Shown piece after piece: positions 38,415 to 39,017 of a stretch of DNA of 64,000 nucleotides (position 1 is the first letter of the stretch; the number at the start of each line of letters is the position of its first letter). Under the pieces are notes generated by a model. It made no database searches. It worked only from the letters and a program-made list of their open reading frames with translations, and was not told the origin of the DNA. The DNA is from Eledone cirrhosa. Its lineage: Eukaryota. Location: contig OZ024758.1 in the NCBI GenBank assembly GCA_964016885.1, forward strand, positions 27,218,001 through 27,282,000, in the 5' to 3' direction. The position numbers were made by a program, and so were the translations under genes.

Positions 38415-39017
38415 GTCAGGTCACCATTTGGTGCTACTGGTAACATGTATCCCAGTACAACCTGTCTTATGGTCGGGTCATTGGCGACTAAACTGGCAAC
38501 CCCACCAAGGTTTCTTAGTGAGGAGGGTGACTTTGGACATCCTGCAGGACTAAAAACAAAACCTGTCAGAGGGCAAAGGAGCTCTTAAGATTCAATGGCC
38601 ATCCAAAATCACCGGGAGAGATGACCCCTTAGCCTTTCTCAAGGCAGAATTCTAAGAGAAGGAAAACTCTGATATAACACCTGCAACCCTGATGGTATCC
38701 AATGATGTTGACTTGTTCTTTTTGCTAAATATCATCTTAGTTAAGAGAGTGGGACTGGCTTTGTGCAGTGCCTTTGCTCACTATAAAAGCTTCACGGCAC
38801 AGGCATTGCTTTATATCTGGAGATCTCTCTGCACTTGTCGTCACATGGTACCATGGGCCCAGCACTATGTGTCAATAATTGTCACAGGTGTAGTGTTTGT
38901 TCCAGAGTTTTCAAGTCACTGGCTAGACTAAAAAGTCACACTCGTTCAGCGTATCGGTAGGGGTTCTCCTACATGGATATAAAGTAGTGGCCGTACTCGA
39001 AAACGAGTTGGCAGCCA

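What the first reader, a model, noticed from the sequence alone, without database searches (positions are those of the whole stretch)
38415..38528. Unclassified structured RNA at the 5' terminus of two divergent RTE-derived families: candidate ribozyme
Seen: R1 (38415-38528; 26706-26795) and R2 (46695-46808, -) both begin GTYAGG and keep the same ordered elements despite divergence. These are a 5' stem (CAGGU/ACCUG vs UAGGCUU/AAGUCUG), a hairpin ACUGG..CCA(A)GU, a hairpin GUUGG-CGACUAAA-CUGGC vs GUCGG-CGUCUAAA-CCGGC, and ACCC-[CACCAAG/CUUGGUG vs CGCCAGAC/GUCUGGUG]-AGGA-GGGU with compensatory changes and an invariant AGGA bulge. Known: some RTE 5' ends carry HDV-like or twister ribozymes. The ACCCCRCC...GAGGAGGGU strands echo twister, but the canonical CCCAAGC loop is missing and the HDV L3/P1.1 pattern is not met. 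Inference: a new or permuted self-cleaving RNA, or a translation or promoter element.
Basis: partly seen in the sequence, partly recalled or inferred. Interest (0 to 1): 0.75.

Follow-up and report, generated by a model that had tools for sequence, protein, structure and literature searches.

The report
Unclassified knotted RNA heading RTE retrotransposons
The first 200 bases of an abundant jumping gene are predicted to fold into a knotted RNA that recurs in other animals' jumping genes, matched no known RNA family tested, and has replaced a predicted standard self-cutting RNA in one element, so it is likely a new type of self-cutting RNA, although cutting is untested.

Summary
The RNA motif is real and larger than reported: about 195 nt (38415-38607), at the exact 5' end of a 605-bp non-autonomous element (about 18,000 pattern matches genome-wide). 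Twelve lineages, three in this genome and nine from metagenome contigs, show compensatory changes in five hairpins and two pseudoknots. Three outside lineages lead into endonuclease coding sequence.

Rfam gives no hit. The motif fails HDV-like, twister and hammerhead tests and crude hairpin and pistol motif checks. An autonomous RTE-type LINE here carries either a textbook HDV-like fold or, after two separate swaps, this motif. Sixteen of 23 copies of the commoner swap start at its first or second base.

Best reading: a 5'-end-generating self-cleaving RNA of unclassified fold (0.45). Main rival: internal promoter plus structured translation or RT-binding element (0.33). Junction bases are mixed and no RNA data were available.

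Two earlier notes of this scan describe similar-sized RTE heads in other DNA, read as HDV variants; whether they are this family is unknown.

The parts
38415..38607 (+). Full structured 5' module (about 193 nt) of R1; G+1 at 38415
38417..38464 (+). 5' domain: 5-bp stem (38417-21 with 38460-64) enclosing a 6-bp hairpin (38435-40 with 38452-57); near-invariant sequence, no two-sided changes
   Evidence: helices 1, 2
38444..38471 (+). Pseudoknot PK1: hairpin loop 38444-47 pairs with 38468-71
   Evidence: 47 of 48 cells paired, 4 two-sided changes in 2 lineages; (other register): 46 of 48, 2 two-sided
38472..38475 (+). GUCG strand; pairs either long-range with 38596-99 or with the CGAC loop (unresolved)
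38480..38497 (+). Hairpin with CGACUAAA loop (loop invariance imposed by the search pattern)
   Evidence: 58 of 60 paired, 4 two-sided; helix 5
38500..38523 (+).
   Evidence: helix 6
38525..38542 (+). Hairpin GGGUG/CAYCC whose loop (38532-37) is the 5' strand of pseudoknot PK3
   Evidence: helix 7
38545..38565 (+). 4-bp hairpin with A-rich 13-nt loop
   Evidence: 46 of 48 paired, 6 two-sided; helix 9
38581..38592 (+). 4-bp hairpin (this copy carries one private mismatch)
   Evidence: helix 10
38602..38607 (+). 3' strand of pseudoknot PK3; closes the module
   Evidence: 65 of 72 paired, 12 two-sided; helix 8: 4 of 5 pairs with two-sided change
38415..39019 (+). Full-length R1 non-autonomous element (605 bp, no ORF) in a TA/TATG microsatellite
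38359..38394 (+). 36-nt duplicate of the R1 5' end, 56 nt upstream; likely re-priming on the same RNA (inferred)
26706..27289 (+). R1 copy lacking the first 24-25 nt
31991..32443 (+). R1 copy truncated inside the module
46477..46808 (-). Old R2 copy (bipartite: module plus LINE 3' end, GGATT tail follows); module about 46612-46808; lacks the first GTCAG repeat
25080..25370 (-). 3' fragment of an old RT-encoding LINE whose last 50-65 nt match the R2 3' end
61345..61669 (+). 3' part of R3, a sister family of R1 that carries the same module in other copies

Best explanation
The first 195 nt of these RTE-type elements are predicted to fold into a multi-pseudoknot RNA that likely cuts itself just before its first G, which would release a full-length retrotransposon RNA from host read-through transcripts. 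SHOWN: the module sits at a fixed 5' boundary; base pairing is selected at the RNA level in 12 lineages; it heads LINEs whose endonucleases are only 33-40% alike; it replaced a canonical HDV-like fold in an autonomous LINE twice, and the products went on transposing with precise 5' ends. INFERRED: the near-invariant 5' domain (5-bp stem, 6-bp hairpin, loop pseudoknot) positions the cut with no need for upstream sequence, and the 3' domain closed by the long-range pseudoknot helps folding, protects the uncapped end or recruits ribosomes. UNTESTED: cleavage, its site, catalytic bases and metal dependence.
For: COVARIATION: on a MAFFT alignment of 17 real copies, not fitted to the structure, 92.5% of 805 cells pair and 18 of 48 pairs change on both sides; 0 of 500 shuffles match any of five measures; slid controls give 29-44%.

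SPREAD: 24 of 36 metagenome pattern hits are homologues in 9 lineages; three lineages lead into endonuclease coding sequence (Pfam confirms L205).

SWAP: of 30 loci found with an endonuclease query, 10 have the R1 module as 5' UTR of one LINE family, 13 have another 5' UTR and 7 have neither. That other UTR passes an HDV-like descriptor in the family majority, starting at its first G. There are two swap junctions (R1 nt 275 and 282). Junction 1 occurs at 23 loci: 14 start at G+1, 2 at +2, 1 holds the whole 5' end inverted, 6 are truncated. The base before G+1 is T 8, A 4, C 2, G 0, and target duplications abut G+1 in L376 and L377.

PRECEDENT: other RTE elements use HDV-like or twister ribozymes at this position (PMC6765202 passages, PMC8501958, PMC5786205).
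Against: No cleavage or RNA-end data (see Tried and rejected). No recognisable catalytic motif was found.

5' junctions are not uniform across families. G precedes the first GTCAG in 14 of 24 independent R2 loci and in 335 of 10,105 R1 starts against 120 for A or C, which could be a copied cap. Six of 10 copies of one outside lineage share CTTT upstream of G+1.

The 5' domain shows almost no covariation, so its sequence could be constrained as DNA. 5' UTR swaps are also explained by promoter exchange in plant RTEs (bioRxiv 10.1101/2022.11.04.512097 passages).

Only 12 related lineages were used (mean identity 80%), selected by an exact pattern, and the structure was derived from these same sequences. 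The shuffle test ignores relatedness and is not a probability.
Confidence: 0.45

Rival explanations
1. The module is an internal Pol II promoter (DNA level, GTCAGGTCA start and invariant 5' domain) whose transcript folds into a non-catalytic structure for translation initiation, stability or binding of the retrotransposon protein.
For: G excess at -1 in R2 (14 of 24) and R1 (335 vs 120). Family-specific 5' extension in one lineage. Invariant rather than covarying 5' domain. About 200 nt with several pseudoknots is large for a small ribozyme (own knowledge). 5' switching is read as promoter exchange in plant RTEs, and L1Tc Pr77 shows that promoter and ribozyme can share one stretch.
Against: 0 of 14 swapped autonomous copies have G at -1. 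R1 and R2 G(-1) can come from TATG targets. The module works on a LINE whose 3' end differs from R1's, which argues against a protein-specific binding site as the main role. It replaced a ribozyme-like fold at nearly the same UTR length (275-282 vs 298 nt).
Confidence: 0.33
2. It is a strongly diverged or rewired HDV-like ribozyme. One reading takes the 5' stem, hairpin and loop pseudoknot as P1, P3 and an enlarged P1.1. Another takes pseudoknot PK3 as P2 with an extra hairpin after L3.
For: Same position and G+1 start as HDV-like ribozymes. The 5' domain has HDV-like connectivity. A conserved GGCCA directly precedes the PK3 3' strand, like J4/2, and a CC-W-G(C) stretch follows the PK3 5' strand. 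Published descriptors are known to be too strict (PMC4035085 passage). Two earlier notes read similar-sized RTE heads this way (unchecked).
Against: Strict descriptor: 0 of 12 lineages; relaxed: 2 of 12, against 19 of 120 shuffles. In an all-against-all helix list no conserved P1 partner lies between the PK3 strands and no P2 strand lies before the hairpin. The strand after CUAAA covaries with its local hairpin, and the P2 reading of it pairs only 40 of 60 cells. Hairpin, loop and pseudoknot sizes (6 bp, 11-14 nt, 4-5 bp) differ from P3, L3 and P1.1.
Confidence: 0.14
3. It is a permuted or reduced twister ribozyme built on the CCCC-RC...GAG-GAGGG strands.
For: The GAG-GAGGG strand resembles the P2/L1 strand of twister variants at the 5' end of the RTE element Perere-3 (PMC8501958 Table 1).
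Against: There is no P4/L4 with CCCAAGC between these strands; a loose L4 pattern hits 2 of 12 lineages. CCCC cannot pair with UGAG as twister P2 would. The strands lie 85-110 nt from the 5' end. No Rfam twister hit even at E 10.
Confidence: 0.03
4. The stems are chance features of a copied repeat and have no RNA-level function.
Against: Two-sided changes in seven helices across 12 lineages, including a pseudoknot over 65 nt; retention on LINEs with 33-40% identical endonucleases.
Confidence: 0.03

Closest known systems
HDV-like ribozymes at 5' ends of non-LTR retrotransposons (R2, RTE, Ingi/L1Tc, R1, R4, LOA; PMC3774820, PMC4035085, PMC5786205 passages; Ruminski 2011 not held, not read)
   Same: Exact 5'-terminal position, G at +1 with free upstream base, multi-pseudoknot fold, kept in bipartite non-autonomous derivatives; interchangeable with an HDV-like fold in one LINE here.
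   Different: No 6-7 bp P1 from +1 with partner right after P3/L3; no 3-bp P3 with 7-8 nt L3; no P2 strand before P3; five extra covarying hairpins; fails the descriptor that the native UTR passes.
Twister variants (T-variants) at the 5' end of Perere-3, RTE clade, Schistosoma mansoni (PMC8501958)
   Same: RTE 5' terminus; shared GAG-GAGGG-U strand; TSD next to the element start.
   Different: P4/L4 and both twister pseudoknots absent; the shared strand lies about 105 nt into the module and pairs differently.
Bipartite non-autonomous RTE LINEs such as Bov-A, RTESINE, WALLSI3 (Kojima 2018, PMC5786205)
   Same: R2 is a 5' UTR plus a LINE 3' end with no ORF. Just after the module it carries a stretch like the RTE-derived 23-bp piece quoted for Ceph-SINEs.
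   Different: That paper describes no RNA structure; the module's motifs CGACTAAA, GTCAGGTCAGG and GAGGAGGG have 0 hits in its supplement. R1's 3' donor LINE was not found.
Pr77 of trypanosome L1Tc/ingi (dual promoter and HDV-like ribozyme; PMC4035085 passages)
   Same: Short 5' hallmark shared by autonomous and deleted elements; model for a double role.
   Different: 77 nt and a recognisable HDV fold, against about 195 nt and an unclassified fold.
5' UTR switching in plant RTE LINEs (bioRxiv 10.1101/2022.11.04.512097 passages)
   Same: Non-homologous 5' ends exchanged on one LINE body.
   Different: Interpreted there as promoter exchange; the word ribozyme does not occur.

Membership tests
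HDV-like ribozyme | Cleavage 5' of G+1 with free upstream base; ribozyme lies downstream of the cut | tested here: inconclusive
   Genomic boundary at G+1 with variable -1 base in swapped copies, but extensions or G excess in other families; cleavage itself not testable
HDV-like ribozyme | P1 of 6-7 bp from +1, partner directly after P3/L3 (PMC3774820) | tested here: not met
   Conserved stem is 5 bp from +3; pairs at +1/+2 vary; partner is 2 nt after a 6-bp hairpin
HDV-like ribozyme | 3-bp P3 with 7-8 nt L3 (YCC...G-Y) and 1-2 bp P1.1 (sizes recalled) | tested here: not met
   Strict descriptor 0 of 12 lineages; positive control passes in its family majority but in only 1 of 7 single decayed copies
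HDV-like ribozyme | P2 between the strand before P3 and the 3' end, preceded by J4/2 with catalytic C | tested here: not met
   P2 reading after CUAAA pairs 40 of 60 cells; the real 3'-terminal pseudoknot pairs with an internal hairpin loop
Twister ribozyme | P4/L4 with CCCAAGC-type loop and pseudoknots T1, T2 | tested here: not met
   Loose L4 pattern in 2 of 12 lineages; no Rfam hit
Twister ribozyme | P2 (CUCC/GGAG type) flanked by UAA and GAGGG | tested here: not met
   GAGGG present, but CCCC and UGAG are not complementary
Hammerhead ribozyme | CUGANGA and GAAA core (recalled) | tested here: not met
   0 of 12 lineages in canonical order, tested up to 60 nt past GAGGAGGG; permuted orders not tested separately
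Hairpin ribozyme | N-GUC site opposite an AGAA strand, with helix 2 upstream of the cut (recalled) | tested here: not met
   GUC start present, but AGAA in 1 of 12 lineages and upstream flank is variable
Hatchet, pistol, twister-sister, glmS, VS and other Rfam families | Match to the Rfam covariance model | tested here: not met
   0 hits at gathering in the window; only microsatellite or sub-threshold hits at E 10 and E 1 on six outside loci. Caveat: Rfam also misses the canonical HDV-like UTR here, so this test is weak
Self-cleaving ribozyme (any class) | Site-specific protein-free cleavage leaving 5'-OH | not testable with these tools
   Needs in vitro transcription or RNA end mapping
Bipartite non-autonomous RTE LINE | 5' end of a LINE joined to a LINE 3' end with microsatellite tail, no ORF, no tRNA head | tested here: met
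   Met for R2 and no tRNA in the window; for R1 the 5' part heads autonomous LINEs but the 3' donor was not found
RTE clade | Single ORF of about 1000 aa with AP endonuclease and RT, short tandem 3' tail | tested here: met
   Pfam RVT_1, DUF6451, endonuclease; 3.4-kb elements with CTGAGT tail; homologues of the same build
RTE clade | Placement in the RTE clade on an RT tree with named references | not tested
   No named reference elements were available; homologue names were uninformative

The most novel reading that the evidence does not exclude
A new structural class of self-cleaving ribozyme, about 195 nt with at least two pseudoknots, that cuts at its own 5' end, is shared by distant RTE-type LINEs of several animals, is present in over ten thousand copies in this genome, and is functionally interchangeable with HDV-like and twister ribozymes as a portable 'start module' that LINEs capture by template switching.
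Probability: 0.42. Interest if true: 0.92.

Novelty: new variant of a known kind. Interest (0 to 1): 0.74.

Why it matters
Only about ten structural classes of self-cleaving RNA are known (PMC10085705 passage), and new ones were found by looking where known classes replace each other. Here a natural swap puts an unclassified, covarying fold in the slot of an HDV-like ribozyme, with a predicted cut site and a construct that can be tested in a day. A positive result would add a class of catalytic RNA from animal genomes and would rate as categorically new. It would also explain how many RTE elements with no recognisable ribozyme make full-length RNA. A negative result would still define a conserved promoter or translation module of RTE 5' UTRs, a clade now used for gene insertion (PMC13708176 passages). 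I file it as a new variant because the niche is known and catalysis is unshown.

Tried and rejected
STRUCTURE READINGS
- My first HDV parse (CUAAA as J4/2, CYGGC as P2) was rejected by covariation of the local hairpin.
- A parse using the downstream ACCUG as P1 partner was rejected because that strand covaries with its own hairpin.
- The parse with PK3 as P2 plus an extra hairpin found no conserved P1 or P3.
- The HDV descriptor first failed its positive control: 0 of 7 copies (J4/2 length too tight) and 1 of 7 after the fix (decayed copies). It passed on the majority of 13 copies. The same descriptor found nothing upstream of 12 loci of other LINE families.
- Single-sequence folding was uninformative.

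DISTRIBUTION
- Viral contigs: 1, 0 and 48 pattern hits, none a homologue beyond the searched motif.
- Prokaryote contigs: 1 chance hit in a protein gene.
- 12 of 36 metagenome hits were chance or prokaryotic and were dropped before counting.
- 11 hits not assigned to R1, R2 or R3 were left out of the family majorities, and the R1 majority used 60 of 101 copies.

RNA AND JUNCTION TESTS
- No RNA holder was listed. The four runs laid were contigs and cannot show ends.
- TSD analysis of R1 was mostly blocked by microsatellite targets: 13 of 87 copies passed my filter, with mixed results. R2 TSDs were mostly eroded.
- Search for R1-R1 dimers moving as a unit: 12 spacers, none shared between separate places; weak.
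- R1's 3' donor LINE was not found among 40 fetched LINE loci.

LITERATURE
- Nine searches and one supplement search found no description of this motif.
- Ruminski 2011 and Webb 2009, which list RTE ribozymes, are not held and were not read; they or their supplements could include members.
- No paper was found to calibrate cap-derived G; that argument rests on recall.

Full report
WHAT IS THERE. At 38415-39019 is a 605-bp element without ORF (R1) inside TA/TATG microsatellite; two truncated copies lie at 26706 and 31991. A two-motif pattern from it has 18,006 matches in the genome and 0 for the reversed control. Copies average 97.5% identity to the family majority over the module (101 copies). 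R2 at 46808-46477 (-) is an older family (89%, 31 copies), and a third family R3 (95%, 17 copies) shares the module. R2's last 50-65 nt match the 3' end of an old RT-encoding LINE, a fragment of which lies at 25080-25370. R2 is therefore a bipartite non-autonomous element of the kind described by Kojima 2018 (PMC5786205; passages, one fifth of the text and a supplement search seen).

CHECK OF THE OBSERVATION. The starts at 38415 and 46808 are as stated, but the 26706 copy lacks the first 24-25 nt. 5' ends do cluster: 21 of 30 loci chosen only on a downstream motif reach GTCAGG, and 10,105 exact 20-nt 5' ends exist.

HOMOLOGUES. One scan of metagenome contigs gave 36 loci, of which 24 are homologues in 9 lineages; the other 12 are chance or prokaryotic. 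Host taxa were not determined. Three lineages (L205/L228, L224, L206) continue into AP-endonuclease coding sequence. Pfam confirms L205 and gives no family for L224. These enzymes are 33-40% identical to each other and to the LINE below, while the module is 71-91% identical between lineages. Viral and prokaryote collections hold no homologue.

STRUCTURE. RNAalifold on 17 real copies gave 37 pairs, 13 with two-sided changes. Inspection of 12 lineage majorities added two pseudoknots. Counts per lineage, with segments assigned by my own pattern and so leaning to the model, are: PK3 (loop of a GGGUG/CACCC hairpin with the 3' end) 65 of 72 cells paired, 12 two-sided; PK1 47 of 48, 4 two-sided in two lineages; CGACUAAA hairpin 58 of 60, 4; variable hairpin 82 of 96, 5; A-rich-loop hairpin 46 of 48, 6; last hairpin 47 of 48, 4. 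The GGGUG/CACCC hairpin gave 55 of 60, 2. The unfitted MAFFT alignment, without PK1 (misregistered there), gave 92.5% of 805 cells paired, 18 of 48 pairs with two-sided change, 0 of 500 shuffles as high, and 29-44% for slid partners. The 5' stem and 6-bp hairpin are nearly invariant and show no two-sided change. The GUCG strand has two possible partners that these data do not separate. CGACUAAA and GAGGAGGG were fixed by the search pattern, so their invariance is not evidence.

NOT A KNOWN FAMILY BY THE TESTS RUN. Rfam gave 0 hits at gathering over the window, and only microsatellite or sub-threshold hits at loose E-values on R1, R2 and six outside loci. This test is weak, because Rfam also misses the HDV-like UTR described next. 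An HDV-like descriptor written from recalled features and PMC3774820 (passages and one section) hit 0 of 12 lineages strictly and 2 of 12 when relaxed, against 19 of 120 shuffles. An all-against-all helix list shows no nested P1/P2/P3 arrangement. Twister L4, hammerhead, hairpin and pistol motifs are absent or sporadic (twister layout from PMC8501958, abstract, introduction and first part of results seen).

THE SWAP. An autonomous LINE family of this genome (single ORF, RVT_1 plus endonuclease, CTGAGT tail, 3.4 kb) has two unrelated 5' UTRs. Among 30 loci found with an endonuclease query, 13 carry a 298-nt UTR, 10 carry R1 nt 1-275 or 1-282, and 7 carry neither. The majority of 13 copies of the 298-nt UTR folds as a textbook HDV-like ribozyme from its first G: 7-bp P1, 3-bp P3, UCCAAGC loop, GG, P4, CUGAA, P2; its activity is predicted, not shown. 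R1 continues past the junctions in its own copies, so R1 is the likely donor. Junction 1 is found at 23 loci. Fourteen start at G+1, 2 at +2, 1 holds the whole 5' end inverted and 6 are truncated; the base before G+1 is T 8, A 4, C 2, G 0; target duplications abut G+1 in L376 and L377. So a LINE that lost its predicted ribozyme kept making full-length, precisely ended RNA once it carried this module, with a protein whose 3' end is not R1's.

MECHANISM. Shown: fixed 5' boundary, RNA-level pairing, spread over divergent LINEs, replacement of an HDV-like fold. Inferred: self-cleavage before G+1 frees the element from host transcripts, as HDV-like and twister ribozymes do in other RTEs (PMC6765202 passages; PMC8501958). 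The 3' domain may protect or translate the uncapped RNA; an AUG lies at +327 of the swapped element, inside the LINE body. Against this, G precedes the start in 14 of 24 independent R2 loci (7 of 30 loci were one tandem cluster, counted once) and in 3.3% of R1 starts against 1.2% for A or C. Six of 10 copies of one outside lineage share four extra upstream bases. These fit a capped transcript or a start upstream of G+1, although TATG targets can give the same picture. L1Tc shows that promoter and ribozyme can coexist (PMC4035085 passages). No RNA reads were available. I put an unclassified ribozyme at 0.45, a promoter with non-catalytic structure at 0.33 and a disguised HDV-like ribozyme at 0.14.

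PRIOR WORK. Nine literature searches found no description of the motif. Other papers seen as passages only: PMC4758252, PMC13708176, PMC10085705, bioRxiv 10.1101/2022.11.04.512097 (86), PMC13282606, PMC9115989, PMC10879173. Ruminski 2011 and Webb 2009 were not available and may list members; Repbase and Dfam could not be searched. This scan's index has no sequence look-alike. Two notes on other DNA describe 183-194 nt RTE heads read as HDV-like with an extra hairpin. They prompted the search that found PK3, but that parse did not hold here, and whether they concern this family is unknown.

VERDICT. A real, covarying, apparently undescribed RNA module in a known functional slot, with a natural replacement experiment pointing to self-cleavage and a cheap decisive test. 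Interest 0.74.

Noticed in passing
L379-L385 first 200 nt (native 5' UTR of the CTGAGT-tailed LINE): Canonical HDV-like ribozyme fold with a J1/2 of about 100 nt that Rfam does not detect; most single copies carry core mutations.
   Followed up: yes
L121:2299-5007: The RT region of this LINE is 70-74% identical to lancelet (Branchiostoma) and unnamed proteins, then drops to about 50%; possible horizontal transfer.
   Followed up: no
L213, L215, L217, L220, L222, L227 upstream of G+1; R3 copies such as L173: The 5' extension of one outside lineage plus the first 7 nt is the exact reverse complement of an 11-nt stretch about 150 nt downstream in R3; possible relic of a terminal long-range stem or of fold-back priming.
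   Followed up: partly
window 38359-38394 and L323: Short duplications of the R1 5' end just upstream of full copies; the window's ends at a CATGTAT microhomology with the target repeat.
   Followed up: partly
L357 (G000:C4:172332264-172335287): Swapped LINE with a 5' inversion that contains the module's first 26 nt up to G+1.
   Followed up: partly
L034, L456-L462: Tandem satellites of 57-95 bp built from pieces of the R2 module.
   Followed up: no
module middle, window 38468-38492: CATGG-GTCG...GTCGG-CGACT resembles the BovB/Bov-A2 3' terminal stem-loop printed in the supplement of PMC5786205; could be chance or an RT-binding motif.
   Followed up: no
window 26100-38400: About 10 kb of strand-biased TA/TATG microsatellite (GC skew up to 0.98) holding three R1 copies; 82 of 87 full R1 copies are followed by AT.
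   Followed up: partly
window, e.g. 260-450, 2296-2641, 57114-57703: An abundant family of about 190 bp is dispersed and tandem throughout the window; ARAGORN finds no tRNA.
   Followed up: no
L269-L272, L286: Young LINE family with intact ORFs of 1076-1265 aa (stop to stop), a zinc-finger-like insert and a TGA-repeat tail; resembles the description of RTE-2_OV in PMC9115989 (not compared by sequence).
   Followed up: no
run X5, record 4: A contig at depth 147 matches 38432-38495 and has a longer hairpin linker after CAGGT; a further lineage of the module that could not be retrieved.
   Followed up: no
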